From: a virus
UHGV virus genome: UHGV-0168755
Direction: 5' to 3' (one strand)
Length of the DNA: 11,681 nt
The notes beneath the pieces are model-generated. The model was not told where the DNA came from. It searched no databases and saw nothing but the letters and a program-made list of their open reading frames with translations. Positions 1,055-9,353 of this stretch are shown here, piece after piece (position 1 is the stretch's first letter; each line of letters opens with the position of its first letter). The translations under genes were made by a program, and so were the position numbers.

Positions 1055-1642
1055 TTAGCACGAAGCGCCGAGTTCAGAGCACGGATCTTCGTCTTCCCAA
1101 TCAAAACTCCGCATACGTGCCCAGTTGATTTGCATGTCAACCTGCTCTACGCGTGTGAGTTTATTGGATCGATCTTCGTTGGATACCCAGTTCCAAATAC
1201 GATCTTCATCGTACTCGTTGGACATACCCGACGTTACTTCACGGAAGTTATCGTCCGTATGCATATACGCCGAACCACGGAAGTTATCGATTTTCGAATA
1301 CCCGTTCTCGTAACCGGTCGCCATGTTGTTATTGTACAATTGTCGATATTCAGGCAACGCCATTAGCAACGGCTGTAAGGTTGCGTTTGCAAACTGGAAT
1401 TGCCCAATCTTCTCCAATTGACGTACAACATCAGTCGCATCGCTATGTTGTACTTTGCGTGCGGCTGCATACATCTCACGGAAACGCTCTAATGAAATTA
1501 ACTCATTACATTTTCGTTTAACGCTTTCGATCATGTCGGGAGCAAAGGCGTTAATATCGAAATTGTCTCTGAAATAGCGATACATCCCACTATTTTCAGT
1601 TTGTCGTGTCCAGATGGTCCCGCCTAAGTTCCACATGCCCAT
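1055..1642 (-). CDS. hypothetical protein (195 aa), acidic C-terminus; last gene of the beta' transcription unit
   Basis: ATG at 1640-1642 lies 3 nt after tandem stops TAA-TGA (1646-1651) that end the beta' exon-2 frame; followed by the terminator at 1017-1052. I see no beta' motifs in it. Confidence 0.55.
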   Translation of the reverse strand: MGMWNLGGTIWTRQTENSGMYRYFRDNFDINAFAPDMIESVKRKCNELISLERFREMYAAARKVQHSDATDVVRQLEKIGQFQFANATLQPLLMALPEYRQLYNNNMATGYENGYSKIDNFRGSAYMHTDDNFREVTSGMSNEYDEDRIWNWVSNEDRSNKLTRVEQVDMQINWARMRSFDWEDEDPCSELGASC

Positions 1643-1648
1643 GTTTCA

Positions 1649-1900
1649 TTACCCCGCCATTAAAACTAGTTCTGAGTCAAGCGCGATACCTGCTTCCAGA
1701 TCTTCTTCAGTATCCTGGAAGAAACGGTTTATGTTGCTGATGTTCTCGTTATGGAGAATCATACAGCTCGAAACCTCATCCACGTTCGTGCTTGACATAA
1801 AGCCGTTATCTGGGCGATAAGCCATGCCCAGTTCCATTTCAATCTGGTCGATTGCTAATCTGCATTGTAACTGGTCGCCATCAAAATCCTGTATGTCCAC
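1649..1900 (-). CDS. multisubunit RNA polymerase beta'-like N-terminal subunit, exon 2 (catalytic DFDGDQ segment); 3' splice site within about 1895-1925
   Basis: Translation ...DIQDFDGDQLQCRLAIDQ...PDNG... contains the universal beta' Mg-binding motif (N)ADFDGD (codons at 1874-1888). The ORF-track start is a GTG that is probably internal to the spliced reading frame. Ends with tandem stops TAA TGA. Confidence 0.7.
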   Translation of the reverse strand: MDIQDFDGDQLQCRLAIDQIEMELGMAYRPDNGFMSSTNVDEVSSCMILHNENISNINRFFQDTEEDLEAGIALDSELVLMAG

Positions 1901-2262
1901 TCCAATCCTTTTGGAGCAGGTGTGCTAAGACACCCTCCCATGCTTTCACATGGGCACAGACTATATCATAACCGTAGGTAACATTACCCGTAGGTCTCCC
2001 CCACTTCGCCGCTAAACTAAGCAGCTACTCTACTCGGTTTTACCCTTTCGATAGTCGTTGAACGATTTTCACCGCTGCTGATTATCCATTATCACGACCC
2101 TTAGCATTATTGGTTAGCATAGGTCATCTTACAAATTATTTCTGACTTTCGTCACCCTATCGGGATCGTAAGCTTTAGGAGTTACCAGCAATTCAGGGGA
2201 TACGCACTAGAGGTTTCCCGTCTAGTGGGCCAACATTTAGCATTTGGTGCTTTGATGACACG
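1898..2262 (-). ncRNA. group I self-splicing intron (ORF-less, about 330-400 nt) interrupting the beta' gene; boundaries approximate
   Basis: Read on the minus-strand sense: P4/P5 region GACGGGAAACCUCUAGUGCGUAUCCCCUG (2194-2223), R/P7 5' strand GUUCAACGACUAUC (2050-2063), S/P7 3' strand AUGAUAUAGUCUG (1957-1969), P9 hairpin GCCCAUG-UGAAAG-CAUGGG (1937-1955), then two small hairpins before candidate terminal G at 1898-1900. Beta' homology stops before this and resumes at DFDGD after it. Confidence 0.7.
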
Positions 2263-3606
2263 ATCAGAAATACGCAGAGAACATTGTGTTACATCTGTCA
2301 GTACCGATGCAATAAACAACGTCTGAATAGAAAGCTGAACCAATGTTGGGTTACGTAGAACTTCCAACATTAAACCGAATCCACCGGGGGATTCTTTAAT
2401 CAGCTCATTAATAATTTCATGTACCAACGGTACATACTGCATTGCCGCAAATGCAATGATACGTTCGCACTGCCGTGGTGTATAATCACGACGACCCAGC
2501 TTGTTCTCAATGTGAACGCTCGCCAACGGAACCAACCAACGCCAAGGCGCAATCACTTTCAACGCATCGTGAGGTTCAGAGATAGGAGAGATAGTCACAC
2601 GTCCGCCCCACGGTACGTGTGTTGACCCGAGTTTTGCCCGATAGAACCCAGGTTTACCTTCCATCACTTCCTGACGATGGTCAATATAGAAATACGCAAG
2701 TTGACGATTCGCTTTGATTGCGCGACGAATAATAAATCGCGGATCGATACGACGTGCATTCGTGTACAGCAACGCCACATTTTTTACTGCGTCGATAGCG
2801 CTGGTGTATACGGGATCGATAAAGATACCCTGTCGACGTTCCTCCGTAACGATCAGTTTCGACGAAATAATCGGAAGATGCCTTGGAAAGAATGTGAACG
2901 ATTGCTCTTGAAAGAACTCACGCCATTCTAAGCGTACACGCTCACTCTCATAACGGTTATTTTTCGTTGGTGGATAAATCTCCTTCCAAACTTCCGGGGA
3001 CGTGAGGATATTAAAGACGGTTCGATGATGGTCGATAAAGTTTCGAATACCGCGTTCGAATCCGTGCTCAATGAGTATTCTTTTCACTACCCGAGCTCGT
3101 GTCCCTTCGTCCTTTTCTGGTCGATAGTACGGATCGATTAGCCATAGAAGCAAATCAGAACCGCGCTCTACCGTCACCTTGTTACGATTGAACTTTTTCA
3201 GCTTAGAACCAAAGAAAGCATTGAAGAGAGACCAAAAACGTGGATTGATAAAGTTGCCCATCTCATCGGGAGCACGTAACCAAACTTCGGACGTAATCCG
3301 GTGTTCAGAAACAACGTGTCCACAGTGCGGGCAACGTAGCCCAAGATTGTAACGATGGGTAATAGGTGATTCGCAGGTCAAACTGCAAATAGGAGCCGAG
3401 TTGAGTGTCTCATCAACGATTCGGTTTTGAAGTATCTGGTTAATCATCTCTGACGCTTCGATGGTATCCATCGTTACAGCAACGTCATTGATAATAATCG
3501 GCGGTTTGTAGCCTTTTTCCTCCGCTTCTTGTATACAGTCACGTAACATTTTATCGTGACTAATTAATCGCCCTGAAATCCCGTAATATTCTAGTTTATG
3601 TTCCAC
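2182..3606 (-). CDS. multisubunit RNA polymerase beta'-like N-terminal subunit, exon 1 (ORF as called; the last roughly 20-35 codons before the TAA at 2182 are probably intron read-through)
   Basis: GTG start at 3604-3606 with GAGGA 6 nt upstream. Zinc finger CSLTC-x13-CPHCGHVV (compare E. coli CxC-x12-CEKCGVEV), GGRVTISPI (compare GRSVITVGP) and LRNPTLVQLSIQ (compare NRAPTLHRLGIQ), in the same order as bacterial beta'. Confidence 0.8.
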   Translation of the reverse strand: MEHKLEYYGISGRLISHDKMLRDCIQEAEEKGYKPPIIINDVAVTMDTIEASEMINQILQNRIVDETLNSAPICSLTCESPITHRYNLGLRCPHCGHVVSEHRITSEVWLRAPDEMGNFINPRFWSLFNAFFGSKLKKFNRNKVTVERGSDLLLWLIDPYYRPEKDEGTRARVVKRILIEHGFERGIRNFIDHHRTVFNILTSPEVWKEIYPPTKNNRYESERVRLEWREFFQEQSFTFFPRHLPIISSKLIVTEERRQGIFIDPVYTSAIDAVKNVALLYTNARRIDPRFIIRRAIKANRQLAYFYIDHRQEVMEGKPGFYRAKLGSTHVPWGGRVTISPISEPHDALKVIAPWRWLVPLASVHIENKLGRRDYTPRQCERIIAFAAMQYVPLVHEIINELIKESPGGFGLMLEVLRNPTLVQLSIQTLFIASVLTDVTQCSLRISDRVIKAPNAKCWPTRRETSSAYPLNCW

Positions 3607-3619
3607 GCCGAATCCTCAA

Positions 3620-3662
3620 CAAAAAAAGAGAGGGAAGGGACAGGGGGTTTTCCCCTGTCCCT
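3620..3662 (-). terminator. candidate intrinsic terminator/attenuator between the 615-aa gene and the beta' gene
   Basis: 10-11 bp stem GGGACAGGGG/CCCCTGTCCC (3637-3661) with 5-nt loop, followed on the minus strand by UUCCCUCUCUUUUUUUG. The U-run starts about 9 nt after the stem, so the call is moderate. It abuts the beta' RBS. Confidence 0.45.
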
Positions 3663-3690
3663 CAACTACTGCTTACTACTTACCAACTTA

Positions 3691-5538
3691 TCAGAAAGTC
3701 GGACGCCAGTCAGTTGCAGCGAAGGACATACCGAAATCGCTACCAAATGCGTTCGGGCCGCTACCAGACAGTGCGAAGTTCTCATTACCCGTGTTAACAA
3801 ACACAGAGTGAGTGAGGCTGTTCGCTGCGGTAACACCGTTCACCTGGAAGTTGCAGTTTTCGGTGATGTATTCCACCAGTGCTTTACCGAACATCGGGTT
3901 GATTGCCAGATCAGACGCTTCGCCAGTTACCTGCGGCTGTTTGCTACCGAACATGGACGCAGCCATTTTCAGCAGGTACAGACGCTGGTCACGCGCATTC
4001 AGATAGCGGTGAGAGTAGGACTGTGCACTAATGTAGTCGATCGCATCGCGCTGGTTGTCGCCCACTTTAGTCAGAGCGGAAACCAAGTCCATATCCTGGA
4101 AGCTACGTTTCTGGCTGTTGCTGAAATACTGACCAGAGATGGTCGGGCAACCGGCGATAACAACATGTTTGCACTCAAAGTTGTTGACATTTCCCAGCAT
4201 CGCTTTGAAGCGGGTGCTGAACTTAGTCGCGCCGTTGCTGGCCATGTTATCCAGGATGTTGAACAGGGTATACAGTGCGTTGGTGTTACCCATCCCGATT
4301 TCGCTCAGGAGAGTAGACAGACCACCAATACCGTTACCTGCACGATGGTTCACCACCAGTGCCGCAGTCGGATTAGCGAAAGTATCCAGGCATTTCTCGA
4401 TAACTTCACGGTTACCGTCGATTTTGCTCAGGTCAGGTTTTTCGCTGCCCCATTCTACATACTCCAGAACGCGGGAGAAGCGGCGATCGGTTTTGTTCAG
4501 CGACTGCATGAAACGTTCACGCCATCCGCCGATAGTGGCGATTTGTGCGAACGCGGCCAGTTCAATCAGCTGACGTTCGATAGGTGCCATTGCCCCAGAG
4601 GATTGAGAATCCATCAGAGAAACAACCACTTCGGCTTCCAGCTGACGCAGGTCCTGAGTACCGTTGGTCAGAGTTTGCGGTTTACCTTTATGGCGGAGGT
4701 TGATGTAACCAACACCTGCAACGCTCGGATAATTCTGGAGGCGTTCAGAAGAGAACAGCGTCGGGTTATTATCGTTATTGCCGGTGCGGGAATGGTCAAC
4801 CACAACCATCAGGTCAGCACGTTGTGCAGAACCGTTAACGTCAGTTACAGAACCTTCTTCAACGACACTGACTTGTGCAGTGAAGCGATCAGAGCGGGTC
4901 ATTTTCAGGTAGCCCAGGTAGCCGGAATGACGACCGAAGATACCCAGTGCAATCTGGCCCATGAGCTGGTTAGCCCATTCTTCGTTCATGGTTTTACCCA
5001 GTTCCGGTACGCAGTTCATTACCATGAACTGTACGCTCGGCAGATTGTGCTGAGTTGCAATCTGGTTAGTGATGTTGTTCATCACACCTTCTTGACTGAA
5101 CAGCTGTGCCAGGGTGTAGTAGTTTTCTTTACCGTTGATTTCGTAGAAACGGATGGATTGGCCGTGTTCGAAGAACAGGATACCGTAGAGCCATTCGTTA
5201 TGGTTATCACCAGACGGACCAGCCACATATGCAGCAGAACCCATTTCAGAGTTGATGCCGTCAATGACGCCCCAACGGAAGTTACGCAGGTAGGTGTTCT
5301 TCTCTGCCATCTTCTCAATCAGACTGGTGAACTGAGAAGCAGTGGACACAAAGGACATATACCCAAAAGCTTTATCGAAGGTGGAAATGTTTTTAGACAT
5401 TCCACCAAAAGCGTTGGCCGCATTGGTGTTATCCATAGTAGGAGCTCCCGCACCGCCGAAAGACGGAATTGGATCTGCGGCGGAACCAGCAGCACCAGTC
5501 ACAACGTCGTTTTGATTGTCAATAAACTCTTTAGCCAT
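3691..5538 (-). CDS. highly expressed 615-aa protein; candidate phage-nucleus shell protein (chimallin), alternatively a major virion structural protein
   Basis: ATG start with AAGGA RBS. Codon usage is visibly shifted to E. coli-type optimal codons (CTG, CGT, GGT, ACC, AAC, GAA) compared with neighbours. Gly/Ala-rich flexible N-terminal segment. Lies immediately upstream of, and co-oriented with, the beta' N-terminal subunit gene. Identity is inferred from size and position, not from recognised sequence. Confidence 0.7.
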   Translation of the reverse strand: MAKEFIDNQNDVVTGAAGSAADPIPSFGGAGAPTMDNTNAANAFGGMSKNISTFDKAFGYMSFVSTASQFTSLIEKMAEKNTYLRNFRWGVIDGINSEMGSAAYVAGPSGDNHNEWLYGILFFEHGQSIRFYEINGKENYYTLAQLFSQEGVMNNITNQIATQHNLPSVQFMVMNCVPELGKTMNEEWANQLMGQIALGIFGRHSGYLGYLKMTRSDRFTAQVSVVEEGSVTDVNGSAQRADLMVVVDHSRTGNNDNNPTLFSSERLQNYPSVAGVGYINLRHKGKPQTLTNGTQDLRQLEAEVVVSLMDSQSSGAMAPIERQLIELAAFAQIATIGGWRERFMQSLNKTDRRFSRVLEYVEWGSEKPDLSKIDGNREVIEKCLDTFANPTAALVVNHRAGNGIGGLSTLLSEIGMGNTNALYTLFNILDNMASNGATKFSTRFKAMLGNVNNFECKHVVIAGCPTISGQYFSNSQKRSFQDMDLVSALTKVGDNQRDAIDYISAQSYSHRYLNARDQRLYLLKMAASMFGSKQPQVTGEASDLAINPMFGKALVEYITENCNFQVNGVTAANSLTHSVFVNTGNENFALSGSGPNAFGSDFGMSFAATDWRPTF

Positions 5539-5582
5539 TTTACTTAATCCTTATAAGGTTTAATACAATTGTAGTGTTGGTT

Positions 5583-7040: not shown

Positions 7041-9353
7041 TCACTCGTCGTCAAAAGCCTCTTCTTCATCATCGTCTTCTTCGTCGTCACCTGCCCTCTC
7101 TGATTTCTTAACGTATTGTACTTCTGCTAATTCCTTGTACAGTTCGTCTTCTTCCTCGACTTTATCGTAGAAATCCGATAACAGTCTCATCCTGTTCTTA
7201 TCCATCATGAACACACCTAAGCATTCCAGAATGTGATAGTAAGGTTCAACTGTAGAGAAAGCCGTGCGACGAATGTCCGCGATAGCGATCAGTTCTTTAG
7301 GAATACCGTAGTTTTCCACCAAATGTTCTGGCAGAATCAACGTTTTGTATTTACGGTAGTTCGTCTCTTCAAACCACGCCGCTGCACCGTTTTTGATAAT
7401 CGGATCTTCTATACTGTCAACCCATTCTTTAATCTTCGTTTTGTTTTCCAACGTTACCGGAAGTTTCACAGCATCGTACGGCGGTTCTTCCAAGTAACCA
7501 AACTTCGGACCAAAGATAGCATTATACATTCGGTGATAGTGATAGTTCTTTTCGTCCTTCTCGTTATAAGCTGCACGCTCTTTAATGTTTGTCGTTTTCA
7601 GATACCCTGGATTACCGGAACGAATGGAATCCATAATCGTGTGCTCGATTTGCGCAACCTTTTCCAGTAATGGAATGATTTCAATTTGGTCACCGCGACC
7701 AACAACCTCACACAACCCCTTAATGGTATTCTTAAACTCCTTCATGATAATCGGCGGAATATTCGACGTACGTAAAGACACGCCTTTTACTTCCAACTCG
7801 GGATCTTTCTTCAACTGACCTTCCTGGCCGGTAATCAATGAGAAGTAGTGTTTTGCTTTGGTAGTTAAGGCAAATGAATCGAACTTAAATTCATTTTTCA
7901 TCGCATAAAGGAATAAACGCTCTTTTGCCACACCGATATTTGCAGACATACTCGCCATCAAATGACGTAAGTGTTGTGTAGCAATATAAATCATTGCATT
8001 GGAAACACGAGTCGCTACTTCACCGTAATGTTTACCGGTGTACCAGATTGCCCACCACTGTGCGGTCATCATGGTAGAGTCAGTATCAGATACCACACCA
8101 ACACGACGAACCACATCTGGCATTCTAGCGATATTAATCGGTAGGTTTTTTGTCGTGAGAATATTACGAATCAGTAACGCGTATTTACCGATTGTTTTCT
8201 GCAAGAACACCGCAGAACGAATCAGCTCTTTATAACCTTCTTGCTGATCCCACGGCAAGGGCTTTTTATTACCGTCAAGTTTCTTAACGTCGCTGAACGC
8301 TTTACCCATCGGTACCACGTCAGTGCGGAACTGTGAGATAATAATCTGCATATCGCCGTCGATGGTCTTCTCAGCAGCAGACCAATCCTCATCACTCCAA
8401 CCGTCGGTATCGACTCGCACTTCAGGAGTAATTAACGCGCCAATAAAATCACGCATGAATTTGTCGTTGTACTTCGCCAGGTGGAAAAAGTCACCCATGT
8501 ATACAAACGCTGCACGCGTTAACGGCGAAACATTACTAACATAATGCTCAACGAACTCCATCCCTTCTTCATTCTTAAAGTAGAAGTCTGCGGAGTAATG
8601 GATAACATCCATTACTTCTTCTACGGTCGGATAATGAAGTTCGTACGTCTCCATACATTTCTTAAAGCTGTTCCAATCGGTTAAAGTACCGATAGATAAG
8701 AAATGATCGATAATTCGTGATGGGGTATCGTAATGACGGTTGCCACCTAACAAACGCTCGTTGCCCGCATTGCCAAACGAGGTTGCAGTACGGCAGGTGG
8801 ACGTCAGCACAGAGTGCGAAGACTGGTTGAAGATAATGGTATACGGAGAAGAGAATGCGCCCGACATCCCGTTGTTCAGTGTCTTAACCGCGTTCTGTTC
8901 GTTCTTTTTGTTGATCTTTAATACTTCATTACCAGCAGCAGCAGCGGCAAACATCTCTTTCTTTACCGCAGCACGTTTCGCTACGTTGGCTGCTGTGAAT
9001 TCCGACAGCTTAGAACGTTTGATGTGTTCTGGAATATAAAAAGTTAACGAAGGTGCAGAGATGATCTGTTTATCAATAACGGTTTTAAATAGCTTATCAA
9101 CAGTTGTATATTTTTCCTCACGATCGCCCGTTTTCTGGTTACGCACCCACATCTTACACACGGGGGACTCGGTGGATAACTCACCGCCCGGTGCAACAAG
9201 TGCATCGACTTCTTGACGGCAAAACTCTAAAGGATATTTTTGTGCTGTCACGTTATGAATGTATAACGCAACCTGTTCACGGTAGGCATCGTTGATATCA
9301 ATATCGCGATGGTATTCGTCTACCGATAAACGAAAAGGAGAATTGTATTCCAC
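7041..9353 (-). CDS. hypothetical 770-aa protein with polyacidic C-terminus (DDEEDDDEEEAFDDE); function unknown
   Basis: GTG start at 9351-9353 with GAGG 6 nt upstream; first gene after the terminator at 9408-9446. Contains VVSDTDS and ALLIRNILT segments that loosely resemble DNA polymerase family B motifs C and B, but no convincing catalytic motif A. Confidence 0.75.
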   Translation of the reverse strand: MEYNSPFRLSVDEYHRDIDINDAYREQVALYIHNVTAQKYPLEFCRQEVDALVAPGGELSTESPVCKMWVRNQKTGDREEKYTTVDKLFKTVIDKQIISAPSLTFYIPEHIKRSKLSEFTAANVAKRAAVKKEMFAAAAAGNEVLKINKKNEQNAVKTLNNGMSGAFSSPYTIIFNQSSHSVLTSTCRTATSFGNAGNERLLGGNRHYDTPSRIIDHFLSIGTLTDWNSFKKCMETYELHYPTVEEVMDVIHYSADFYFKNEEGMEFVEHYVSNVSPLTRAAFVYMGDFFHLAKYNDKFMRDFIGALITPEVRVDTDGWSDEDWSAAEKTIDGDMQIIISQFRTDVVPMGKAFSDVKKLDGNKKPLPWDQQEGYKELIRSAVFLQKTIGKYALLIRNILTTKNLPINIARMPDVVRRVGVVSDTDSTMMTAQWWAIWYTGKHYGEVATRVSNAMIYIATQHLRHLMASMSANIGVAKERLFLYAMKNEFKFDSFALTTKAKHYFSLITGQEGQLKKDPELEVKGVSLRTSNIPPIIMKEFKNTIKGLCEVVGRGDQIEIIPLLEKVAQIEHTIMDSIRSGNPGYLKTTNIKERAAYNEKDEKNYHYHRMYNAIFGPKFGYLEEPPYDAVKLPVTLENKTKIKEWVDSIEDPIIKNGAAAWFEETNYRKYKTLILPEHLVENYGIPKELIAIADIRRTAFSTVEPYYHILECLGVFMMDKNRMRLLSDFYDKVEEEDELYKELAEVQYVKKSERAGDDEEDDDEEEAFDDE

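What the first reader, a model, noticed from the sequence alone, without database searches (positions are those of the whole stretch)
1898..2262. ORF-less group I intron splitting the RNA polymerase beta' gene just before the catalytic DFDGD motif
Beta' homology runs through ...LRNPTLVQLSIQ... in ORF 2182-3606, breaks, and resumes about 300-370 nt downstream at DIQDFDGDQ in ORF 1649-1900. The intervening sequence carries the conserved group I core in the right order on the minus-strand sense: a P4/P5 segment (2194-2223), R element GUUCAACGACUAUC (2050-2063), S element AUGAUAUAGUCUG (1957-1969, P7 pairing GACUAU/AUAGUC), a P9 hairpin (1937-1955) and two short hairpins before a candidate terminal G near 1898-1900. 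From memory the layout resembles the phage T4 td intron. The P4 segment lies inside the called ORF, so the last roughly 20-35 codons of ORF 2182-3606 are likely intron read-through and the true exon 1 ends near 2230-2300. No homing endonuclease ORF is present. I could not fix the exact splice sites by eye; one length-conserving reconstruction is ...SLRISDR joined to DIQDFDGDQ... A ribozyme sitting in the active-site region of a viral RNAP subunit would make polymerase production depend on splicing.
Basis: partly seen in the sequence, partly recalled or inferred. Interest (0 to 1): 0.85.

Follow-up and report, generated by a model that had tools for sequence, protein, structure and literature searches.

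The report
Group I intron in phage RNA polymerase gene
A 350-base self-splicing-type (group I) intron with no gene of its own interrupts a jumbo phage's RNA polymerase gene one codon boundary before the catalytic DFDGD motif; the intron is real, but it is a further example of something already documented in phiKZ-like phages.

Summary
Rfam's group I intron model matches window 2248..1937 (-) at 56.6 bits against a threshold of 50 (E 1.9e-12).

Intron-less close relatives fix the intron exactly at 2238..1889 (-), 350 nt. Exon 1 is 3606..2239 and exon 2 is 1888..1649. The spliced product is 535 aa and reads ...RVIKAPNA|DFDGDQL, not SLRISDR|DIQDFDGDQ.

On six related introns, a P1-P9.2 structure including the P3/P7 pseudoknot is 97% paired. 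It has 37 pairs with compensatory changes, against 3-7 in slid controls.

The longest stop-free stretch inside the intron is 45 codons. Relatives in Salmonella phage SaP7, Proteus phage 7 and Klebsiella phage phiKp_32 carry an HNH/NUMOD endonuclease ORF in the P1 loop.

The intron looks recently mobile. It is 98% identical between two metagenomic phages whose exons are only 75% identical. Each of those lineages has an intron-less sister, and one pair shows a co-conversion-like tract at the insertion site.

Introns in phiKZ gp55 and in other jumbo-phage RNA polymerase genes are already published, so this is a new member of a known kind. Splicing itself was not tested.

The parts
2239..3606 (-). 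Exon 1 of the gp55-like gene (non-virion RNA polymerase beta' N-terminal subunit). GTG start at 3606. 456 codons, ending ...RVIKAPNA (GCU at 2241..2239).
   Evidence: (phrog_2987 RNA polymerase beta subunit, E 2.7e-164). The end is fixed by the intron-less alleles L015, L017 and L005.
1889..2238 (-). Group I intron, 350 nt, without an ORF. It begins AAAUGUUGGCCC and ends GGACAUACAG (omega G = 1889).
   Evidence: RF00028 at 56.6 bits. Exact insertion relative to intron-less relatives. Covariation. No ORF.
1649..1888 (-). Exon 2: 79 codons, DFDGDQLQCRLAID...LVLMAG, plus the stop at 1651..1649.
2229..2241 (-). P1 hairpin GCU|AA-AUG-UUGGC. Pairs are G2241-C2229, C2240-G2230, the U2239.G2231 wobble at the 5' splice site, A2238-U2232 and A2237-U2233.
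   Evidence: Read from the sequence. The pair next to the wobble is C-G here and G-C in the Seoulvirus introns (helix 1). Inner pairs co-vary: AA/UU here, UC/GA in EC001 (by eye).
2205..2227 (-). P2 hairpin CACUAGACGG-GAAA-CCUCUAGUG.
   Evidence: helix 2: 9 pairs, 3 with compensatory changes, 100% paired.
2195..2200 (-). P3 5' strand UCCCCU. It pairs with 2002..1997 (GGGGGA).
   Evidence: helix 3: 3 of 6 pairs compensatory..
2076..2190 (-). P4 (2190..2185 with 2081..2076) enclosing P5 (2180..2178 with 2087..2085) and a branched P5 extension. The extension is stem 2172..2166/2134..2128, a GAAA-capped stem 2154..2143, and stem 2127..2121/2100..2094.
   Evidence: helices 4-10 (the P5 extension stem has 6 of 7 pairs compensatory)..
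2182..2184 (-). First in-frame stop (UAA) met by ribosomes reading from exon 1 into the intron (intron nt 55-57, in J4/5). An unspliced message gives a 474-aa product without DFDGD.
2062..2075 (-). P6 (GCG...CGU).
   Evidence: helix 11 (invariant, so uninformative)..
2052..2056 (-). P7 5' strand GACUA, inside the R element 2063..2050. It pairs with UAGUC at 1963..1959.
   Evidence: alignment. helix 12: one compensatory U-A to C-G change in SaP7, 100% paired.
2008..2051 (-). Region between P7 and P3'. It holds a probable P7.1 (UCG...CGA around 2051..2034) and P7.2 (2025..2020 with 2013..2008).
   Evidence: P7.2: helix 13, 5 of 6 pairs compensatory. P7.1 is read by eye only, because the alignment is gapped there.
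1997..2002 (-). P3 3' strand GGGGGA.
1971..1995 (-). P8 hairpin (ACC/GGU plus GGGUA/UACCU).
   Evidence: helices 14-15 (5 pairs compensatory)..
1959..1963 (-). P7 3' strand UAGUC, inside the S element 1969..1957.
1937..1954 (-). P9 hairpin CCCAUGU-GAAA-GCAUGGG.
   Evidence: helix 17 (5 of 7 pairs compensatory)..
1899..1936 (-). P9.1 (1936..1918) and P9.2 (1917..1899) hairpins.
   Evidence: helices 18-19..
1889..1892 (-). 3' end ACAG. ACA (1892..1890) can pair with UGU (1958..1956) as P9.0. G1889 is the terminal omega G.
   Evidence: helix 16 (nearly invariant). Junction.

Best explanation
Window 2238..1889 (minus strand) is a 350-nt group I intron of the IA type, with P7.1/P7.2 and P9.0-P9.2. 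It carries no endonuclease gene. [quoted passage not shown]

Inferred mechanism, by the standard group I pathway:
1. The pre-mRNA folds.
2. A free guanosine attacks after U2239, which is held in a U.G wobble with G2231 in a short P1.
3. The freed exon 1 3'-OH attacks after the terminal G1889.
4. The ligated mRNA encodes a 535-aa subunit reading ...VIKAPNADFDGDQL.

A message that is not spliced is translated only to a stop at 2184..2182. That yields a 474-aa protein without the catalytic aspartates, so active polymerase depends on splicing.

The intron is a mobile or recently mobile element. It has no endonuclease of its own, so it must spread by recombination between co-infecting phages. This may be helped by HNH/NUMOD nicking endonucleases encoded in the P1 loop of sister introns.

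Shown here: the intron's identity, its exact boundaries, conservation of its structure, the identity of the host gene, presence/absence polymorphism, and discordant divergence of intron and exons. Inferred: actual self-splicing, its timing, and the route of transfer.
For: Intron identity: RF00028 hit above gathering (56.6 bits, E 1.9e-12). The same family is hit in relatives at 52-76 bits.

Boundaries: intron-less alleles read ...GCGCCTAACGCT|GATTTCGATGGC (L015, 97% aa identity), and likewise in L017 and SPN3US. This leaves exactly 2238..1889 as the insertion. It starts after a U and ends in G. It is in frame on both sides.

Host gene: the spliced protein aligns without a gap through KAPNADFDGDQL of phiKZ gp55 (7OGP_A, E 2e-39). 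It is colinear over 100% of its length with the uninterrupted genes of Erwinia phages phiEaH2 and Asesino.

Structure: 93 pairs are 97.3% paired. 37 pairs carry compensatory changes, against 14.7+-2.5 in shuffles and 3-7 in slid controls. RNAalifold independently found 36 of 90 pairs compensatory.

ORFs: none in the intron. Sister introns carry HNH/NUMOD ORFs in the P1 loop.

Mobility:
- The L013 and L014 introns are 98% identical while their exons are 75% identical.
- The intron-less sisters L015 and L017 are 95.5% and 98.5% identical to them in exon 1.
- L014/L017 differences cluster at -16..-4 and +3..+39 of the insertion site.
Against: No transcript or biochemical data exist for this sequence.

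ONT-cappable-seq of phiKZ did not detect splicing of the predicted phiKZ introns under the conditions used (PMC10914365). However, the solved phiKZ polymerase contains the fused PHIKZ055 + PHIKZ056.1 chain.

P1 has only three exon base pairs, and I found no convincing P10.

The MFE z-score of the intron alone is modest (-2.35).

Some GenBank records annotate the two exons as separate genes, for example EC001 'beta subunit 1' and 'beta subunit 2'.
Confidence: 0.9

Rival explanations
1. The intron core is a decayed relic that no longer splices. The gene is then expressed as two polypeptides: a 474-aa beta' N fragment and an 83-aa DFDGD fragment started at GTG 1900. These would assemble like the other split subunits of jumbo-phage polymerases.
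For: Jumbo-phage beta and beta' are naturally split into several polypeptides (PMC7598289). Some GenBank annotators called two genes in the Seoulvirus homologues. ORF 1649-1900 does have a GTG start.
Against: Every core helix is intact and kept by compensatory changes. The U.G wobble and the terminal G are present. The insertion is exact to the base relative to intron-less alleles. GTG 1900 lies inside P9.2, and its only Shine-Dalgarno-like GGAG abuts it directly. The V-D-I-Q residues it would add are absent from all uninterrupted homologues. The 18 read-through codons have no homologue either.
Confidence: 0.04
2. It is a true group I intron, but it does not splice by itself. Efficient splicing would need a phage or host protein (chaperone or maturase-like help), or the ribosome-free setting of a phage nucleus. 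If so, splicing would act as a regulated checkpoint for polymerase production rather than a neutral event.
For: P1 is very short and no P10 was found. Published work links T4 intron splicing in vivo to translation and growth state (Sandegren and Sjoberg 2007, listed in PMC10914365). The closest relatives by this gene include Erwinia phage Asesino, which is reported as nucleus-forming (title cited in PMC12908238).
Against: Nothing in the sequence requires a cofactor, and the core is complete. No maturase-like ORF is present. I could not show that the upstream 615-aa gene is a nuclear-shell protein.
Confidence: 0.15
3. The Rfam match is a chance resemblance, and the break in the reading frame is a sequencing or assembly artefact.
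For: None found.
Against: The Rfam E-value is 1.9e-12. The same 350-nt insertion occurs at the same base in two independent metagenomic contigs, and related introns occur at the same base in more than 10 GenBank phages.
Confidence: 0.01

Closest known systems
phiKZ gp55 intron (PHIKZ055 / HNH endonuclease PHIKZ056 / PHIKZ056.1)
   Same: It is in the same gene (non-virion RNA polymerase beta' N subunit) and the same motif. It matches RF00028 at 75.6 bits. The mature protein is the fused chain seen in PDB 7OGP. It has been predicted since 2002 (PMC10914365, PMC11512511).
   Different: The insertion point is 3 nt upstream (KAPN|ADFDGD). It carries a 334-aa HNH/NUMOD ORF. Its 3' half is td-like (CUGCAUGG(C/U)GACAUGCAG), unlike the window intron. 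Only about 110 nt of the window intron find it by blastn, at 73% identity.
Introns at the same base in Seoulvirus (SPN3US-like) phages: EC001, JN03, SPLA3, SPLA5c, 1252 and Lh1B (356 nt, no ORF); SaP7 and Proteus phage 7 (1404 nt with an HNH ORF)
   Same: The insertion site is identical (Ala/Gly codon | GAT of DFDGD). The architecture is the same, at 72-73% nucleotide identity. SPN3US itself and the SPFM phages are intron-less, so the intron is polymorphic there too.
   Different: The host lineage differs (host protein 67% identical). The P1, P6, P7.1 and P9.2 details differ. In SaP7 and Proteus phage 7 the P1 loop holds a 288-aa HNH/NUMOD1 ORF. These records annotate two genes or hypothetical proteins, not an intron.
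PhiPA3 gp210 intron in the virion RNA polymerase beta gene (Birkholz et al. 2024, PMC11620839)
   Same: It is a group I intron at conserved catalytic-region aspartates of a jumbo-phage RNA polymerase subunit. It belongs to the same ecological setting of competition between co-infecting phages.
   Different: It is in a different gene (virion polymerase beta subunit). It carries an active nicking HNH endonuclease, which the window intron lacks.
T4 td intron (subgroup IA2, I-TevI in P6)
   Same: It is a phage group I intron in an essential gene with IA-type peripheral helices. It shares core strings: GAUAUAGUCUG, CGACUAUC and the ACGGG(G/A)AACCUCU P2 loop.
   Different: No similarity beyond those short core strings (best 11 nt). 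The td ORF is GIY-YIG and sits in P6. Here there is no ORF, and relatives place an HNH ORF in P1. The window intron has a large branched P5 extension.

Membership tests
Group I intron (Rfam RF00028) | Conserved catalytic core P3-P8 with the P/Q/R/S sequence elements, scoring above the curated threshold | tested here: met
   56.6 bits against gathering 50, E 1.9e-12, full-length model match.
Group I intron (Rfam RF00028) | Helices supported by compensatory substitutions, including the P3/P7 pseudoknot | tested here: met
   97.3% of cells paired. 37 of 93 pairs have changes on both sides, against 3-7 in slid controls and 0/500 shuffles reaching the observed value. P3 has 3 compensatory pairs and P7 has 1. 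Only six sequences were used, three of them close, and part of the structure was derived from this alignment.
Group I intron (Rfam RF00028) | 5' splice site after a U that forms a U.G wobble in P1 with an internal guide sequence | tested here: met
   U2239.G2231, flanked by C2240-G2230 and G2241-C2229. The neighbouring pair switches C-G to G-C in Seoulvirus introns. SPN3US, which is intron-less, has GGA at this codon where the intron-bearing Seoulvirus alleles have GGT.
Group I intron (Rfam RF00028) | Intron ends in a G (omega G), and exon ligation restores the host reading frame exactly | tested here: met
   G1889. Removing 2238..1889 reproduces the sequence of the intron-less alleles base for base and gives KAPNADFDGDQL as in phiKZ gp55.
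Group I intron (Rfam RF00028) | Guanosine-dependent self-splicing of the transcript | not testable with these tools
   Needs in vitro transcription with a GTP assay, or RNA from infected cells.
Subgroup IA (T4 td / nrdB type) | Extra helices P7.1 and P7.2 between P7 and P3', and P9.0/P9.1/P9.2 at the 3' end | tested here: inconclusive
   P7.2 (5 of 6 pairs compensatory), P9.1 and P9.2 are supported. P7.1 and P9.0 are read by eye or are invariant. Assignment to IA rests on my knowledge of the Michel-Westhof scheme, not on a subgroup-specific model.
Subgroup IA (T4 td / nrdB type) | Specific sequence relationship to the T4 td intron | tested here: not met
   blastn-short of the window intron against the two non-ORF parts of td finds only core strings of 7-13 nt, best E 0.017.
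Mobile (homing) group I intron | Intron-encoded homing endonuclease | tested here: not met
   The longest stop-free stretch in the intron is 45 codons and the P1 loop is 3 nt. Sister introns do carry HNH/NUMOD ORFs.
Mobile (homing) group I intron | Presence/absence polymorphism among close relatives and an intron phylogeny discordant with the host gene | tested here: met
   L013(+)/L015(-) are 95.5% identical in exon 1 and L014(+)/L017(-) are 98.5% identical. The L013/L014 introns are 98% identical while their exons are 75% identical. Substitutions cluster around the site.
phiKZ gp55-type beta' N subunit of jumbo-phage non-virion RNA polymerase | Sequence homology across the subunit, including the Zn-ribbon cysteines and the NADFDGD loop at the C-terminal end | tested here: met
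   7OGP_A at E 2.1e-39 over residues 70-498. AR9 beta' 7S00_d at E 9e-7. phrog_2987 at E 2.7e-164. Pfam gives nothing significant.

The most novel reading that the evidence does not exclude
The ORF-less intron is not just a leftover. It may be an endonuclease-free mobile element that moves between jumbo-phage lineages only 75% identical in this gene. It may persist because occupying the NA|DFDGD site destroys the target of HNH nicking endonucleases carried by sister introns in competing phages. On that reading it acts as an immunity allele in phage-phage interference of the PhiPA3 gp210 type.

The NADFDGD codons would then be a contested hot spot. Four distinct insertion points lie within 15 nt across chimalliviruses: N|A in phiKZ, A|D here, D|F in a Vibrio phage, and G|D in Klebsiella and Raoultella phages. 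The last leaves a 12-nt micro-exon, and the element there is not recognised by Rfam.
Probability: 0.3. Interest if true: 0.55.

Novelty: new member of a known kind. Interest (0 to 1): 0.3.

Why it matters
For annotation: the two ORFs 2182-3606 and 1649-1900 should be joined as 3606..2239 + 1888..1649 into one 535-aa catalytic subunit. Several GenBank Seoulvirus records with the same split need the same correction.

For biology: it adds a clean natural series at one site of an essential polymerase gene. The series runs from intron-less alleles, through an intron without an ORF, to an intron with an HNH ORF in P1. Sequence evidence points to recent horizontal transfer of the ORF-less form. After the PhiPA3 gp210 work, such series are useful for asking whether introns in jumbo-phage polymerase genes serve as weapons or as shields.

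It does not reveal a new kind of element or mechanism.

Tried and rejected
1. Intron-less alleles and phiKZ gp55 show VIKAPNA|DFDGDQ.
2. A specific relationship to the T4 td intron is rejected. Only short core strings match.
3. P10: I looked by eye for pairing between the start of exon 2 (GAUUUU) and the nucleotides 5' of the guide sequence. I found only weak pairings that are not conserved, so none is claimed.
4. The RNAalifold pairs 17-45, 18-44 and 307-310/377-380 were dropped. They conflict with P1 and P7, which fit the known group I topology and co-vary.
5. I tried to show that the upstream 615-aa gene (3691-5538, minus strand) is the nuclear-shell protein, as synteny with phiKZ gp54 and Vibrio phage 2 TSL-2019 suggests. 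There was no PDB sequence hit, no Pfam hit, and BLASTP E 0.29 and 4.1 against partial sequences of the two annotated shell proteins. This is left open.
6. A covariance model of the whole family was not built. The 392-column alignment is far beyond the size for which calibration is accepted.
7. Rfam on the second insertion of the Raoultella phage gene found nothing, even at E<=1.
8. The large protein-database searches, structure prediction and fold search were not used. Identity of the host gene was already settled by the PDB, PHROG and tblastn results.

Full report
**Observation**

Reading the minus strand of 1500-3700 shows ORF 3606..2182, whose product ends ...LRNPTLVQLSIQTLFIASVLTDVTQCSLRISDRVIKAPNAKCWPTRRETSSAYPLNCW*. 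It also shows ORF 1900..1649, which begins VDIQDFDGDQLQ. A scan of the whole window against Rfam at gathering thresholds gives a single hit. It is RF00028 (group I intron) at 2248..1937 on the minus strand, at 56.6 bits against a threshold of 50, E 1.9e-12, covering the full model.

**Host gene**

After in-silico splicing, the 535-aa protein matches chain A of the phiKZ non-virion RNA polymerase structure. That chain is 7OGP_A, named 'PHIKZ055 ... PHIKZ056.1', with E 2.1e-39. The alignment runs without a gap through lkAPNADFDGDQL. The protein also matches the AR9 beta' subunit (7S00_d, E 9e-7). PHROGs assigns it to phrog_2987, 'RNA polymerase beta subunit', at E 2.7e-164. Pfam sees nothing significant. 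tblastn finds homologues in 279 phage records, all jumbo phages of Pseudomonas, Erwinia, Salmonella, Vibrio and similar hosts. The best are Erwinia phages phiEaH2, Stratton and Asesino at 68% identity. In those phages the gene is uninterrupted and colinear over 100% of the query. The window therefore comes from an uncatalogued phiKZ-like jumbo phage. A divergent family B DNA polymerase (PF20286, E 6e-280) lies at 9353..7041.

**Exact boundaries**

A scan of IMG/VR returned four relatives besides phiEaH2. Two carry a 350-nt insertion: L013 at 97% aa identity and L014 at 83%. Two do not: L015 at 97% and L017 at 82%. The intron-less alleles read ...ATCAAAGCGCCTAACGCT|GATTTCGATGGCGACCAG. The window reads ...ATCAAAGCACCAAATGCT[AAATGTTGG...GGACATACAG]GATTTTGATGGCGACCAG.

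This fixes the parts as follows:
- The intron is 2238..1889, with no alternative register.
- Exon 1 is 3606..2239 (456 codons).
- Exon 2 is 1888..1652, plus the stop codon.
- Both junctions fall on codon boundaries.
- The intron follows a U and ends in G, as group I chemistry requires.

V-D-I-Q is encoded by the 3' strand of P9.2 and the intron tail.

**Structure**

I aligned six related introns: the window, L013, L014, Escherichia phage EC001, Raoultella phage VB_ZK_P1, and the 3' part of the Salmonella phage SaP7 intron.

RNAalifold predicted 90 pairs, 36 of them with compensatory changes. I removed the pairs that conflict with group I topology and added P1, P7 (a pseudoknot with P3) and P9.0. 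I then counted the resulting structure of 93 pairs:
- 97.3% of cells are paired, against 36-46% when partners are slid by 1-3 columns.
- 37 pairs have changes on both sides, against 3-7 in the slid controls and 14.7+-2.5 in shuffles. None of 500 shuffles reached the observed value.

Two caveats apply. There are only six sequences, three of them close. Most of the structure was also derived from this same alignment.

Window coordinates of each helix are and in the parts list. P1 is a minimal hairpin, GCU|AA-AUG-UUGGC, with only three exon pairs. The pair next to the U.G wobble switches from C-G (window) to G-C (Seoulvirus). The two intron-side pairs switch from AA/UU to UC/GA in EC001. A well-supported P7.2, P9.1 and P9.2, together with a probable P7.1, point to subgroup IA. 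That assignment rests on my knowledge of the classification.

Direct comparison with the T4 td intron found only generic core strings of 7-13 nt. The intron alone folds with a modest z-score of -2.35.

**No ORF here, but ORFs in sister introns**

The longest stop-free stretch in the intron is 45 codons. The SaP7 and Proteus phage 7 introns are 1404 nt. They hold a 288-aa ORF with HNH_3 and NUMOD1 domains (phrog_59, HNH endonuclease, E 8e-28). That ORF lies in the loop of an extended P1, whose stem is UAUUCUGCU/AGCAGAAUA. Klebsiella phage phiKp_32 has a 339-aa HNH ORF in the same place, flanked by the stem AAGAAGUGAGAG/CUCUCACUUCUU. The window intron is the minimal form of this family.

**Distribution and prior knowledge**

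blastn with the intron finds 67 phage records, and 10 of them hold at least 80% of it.

Within Seoulvirus the same base is found in three states:
- Empty in SPN3US and the SPFM phages, which read ...AATGGA|GATTTC.
- Occupied by a 356-nt ORF-less intron in EC001, JN03, SPLA3, SPLA5c, 1252 and Lh1B.
- Occupied by the ORF-bearing form in SaP7 and Proteus phage 7.

GenBank annotates these as two 'beta subunit' genes or as hypothetical proteins, not as an intron.

In phiKZ itself the gene is PHIKZ055 + HNH endonuclease PHIKZ056 + PHIKZ056.1. It has an RF00028 hit of 75.6 bits. The insertion there is 3 nt upstream (CCUAAU|...G|GCUGAUUUU). In Vibrio phage 2 TSL-2019 a related intron sits 3 nt downstream, after GAU.

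The literature already records several of these elements:
- Predicted introns and endonucleases at phiKZ gp55/56, gp72 and gp179/180 (PMC10914365; PMC11512511).
- Introns in vRNAP subunits of phiKZ and 201phi2-1 (PMC5105663).
- The experimentally dissected PhiPA3 gp210 intron endonuclease (PMC11620839).

This finding is therefore a new member of a known kind.

**Evidence of recent mobility**

The L013 and L014 introns are 98.0% identical, while their exons are 75% identical. The window intron is 93% identical to both. The window's exons are 93.5% identical to L013 and 75% identical to L014. Each intron-bearing contig has a near-identical intron-less sister: L013/L015 at 95.5% and L014/L017 at 98.5% in exon 1.

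Between L014 and L017, 5 of the 21 exon-1 differences lie in the last 16 nt. In exon 2, 6 of the 8 differences lie in the first 39 nt. All sit at codon third positions except +32, which changes Arg to Leu, and several match the intron-bearing lineages. This is the pattern expected from co-conversion of flanking markers when an intron is acquired by recombination. How an intron without an endonuclease achieves this is inferred, not shown. Candidates are an endonuclease supplied in trans, plain recombination in mixed infections, or reverse splicing.

**Consequence for the phage**

Ribosomes entering an unspliced message stop at UAA 2184..2182, in J4/5, after 18 intron-encoded codons. The product lacks the three aspartates that hold the catalytic Mg2+. 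An independent start for exon 2 is unlikely. GTG 1900 lies inside P9.2 with a GGAG directly abutting it, and it would add VDIQ, which no homologue has. Active non-virion polymerase therefore depends on splicing. This is an inference from the sequence. Whether splicing is regulated is unknown.

**Verdict**

The element is real (confidence 0.9) but not novel in kind, and I score interest at 0.3. The most novel reading still open is that ORF-less introns at this contested site spread horizontally and shield the polymerase gene from competitors' homing endonucleases (probability about 0.3).

Noticed in passing
L008 2862-3190 (Raoultella phage VB_ZK_P1) and L007 2859-3187 (Klebsiella phage phiKp_32): In these relatives the first intron is followed by a 12-nt micro-exon (GATTTTGACGGT = DFDG). 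A second insertion of about 309 nt follows, before GATACCATG (D-T-M...). This second element starts after a U and ends in G. It folds with z = -4.09. It has partial relatives in unannotated stretches of Aeromonas jumbo phages and an Exiguobacterium phage. It gets no Rfam hit even at E<=1. It may be a divergent intron class missed by RF00028.
   Followed up: partly
L012 738-958 (Pseudomonas phage PaZh_1, phiKZ-like): This phiKZ-like genome has an additional group I intron (RF00028 at 48.9 bits, just under gathering). It splits the same gene at FHRN|PTLQRG, inside the conserved RNPTL motif, besides the intron at the DFDGD site.
   Followed up: partly
L014 vs L017, within -16..+39 nt of the insertion site: The intron-plus and intron-minus sister contigs are 98.5% identical in exon 1. 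Their differences pile up right at the intron site (positions -16, -13, -10, -7, -4, +3, +6, +9, +18, +32, +39). This looks like a co-conversion tract.
   Followed up: yes
window 3598-5547 (+) vs 3691-5538 (-): A 649-aa ORF on the plus strand is an antisense shadow of the real 615-aa minus-strand gene (phrog_8316, E 2e-232). That gene sits where phiKZ and a Vibrio phage have the nuclear-shell gene. I could not demonstrate homology to shell proteins by sequence.
   Followed up: partly
window 3635-3663 (-): A strong terminator-like hairpin lies between the upstream 615-aa gene and the polymerase gene. It is GAGGGACAGGGG-AAAAC-CCCCTGTCCCTT (12 pairs) followed by a T-rich tail. It suggests separate or attenuated transcription units.
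   Followed up: no
window intron nt 176-214 (window 2063..2025): The P7-P7.1 stretch (GUUCAACGACUAUCGAAAGGGUAAAACCGAGUAG...) is 95% identical over about 39 nt to sequences next to HNH/NUMOD genes in RB49/JSE-like T-even phages, and 95% over 37 nt to an Acinetobacter phage. This hints at shared intron modules across unrelated phage groups.
   Followed up: no
L006 (Enterobacteria phage SEGD1) 1501-3068: The SEGD1 homologue matches in two tblastn pieces over a span 1 nt shorter than in SPN3US, and it has no annotated CDS. This is probably a frameshift or sequencing error in that record rather than an intron.
   Followed up: no
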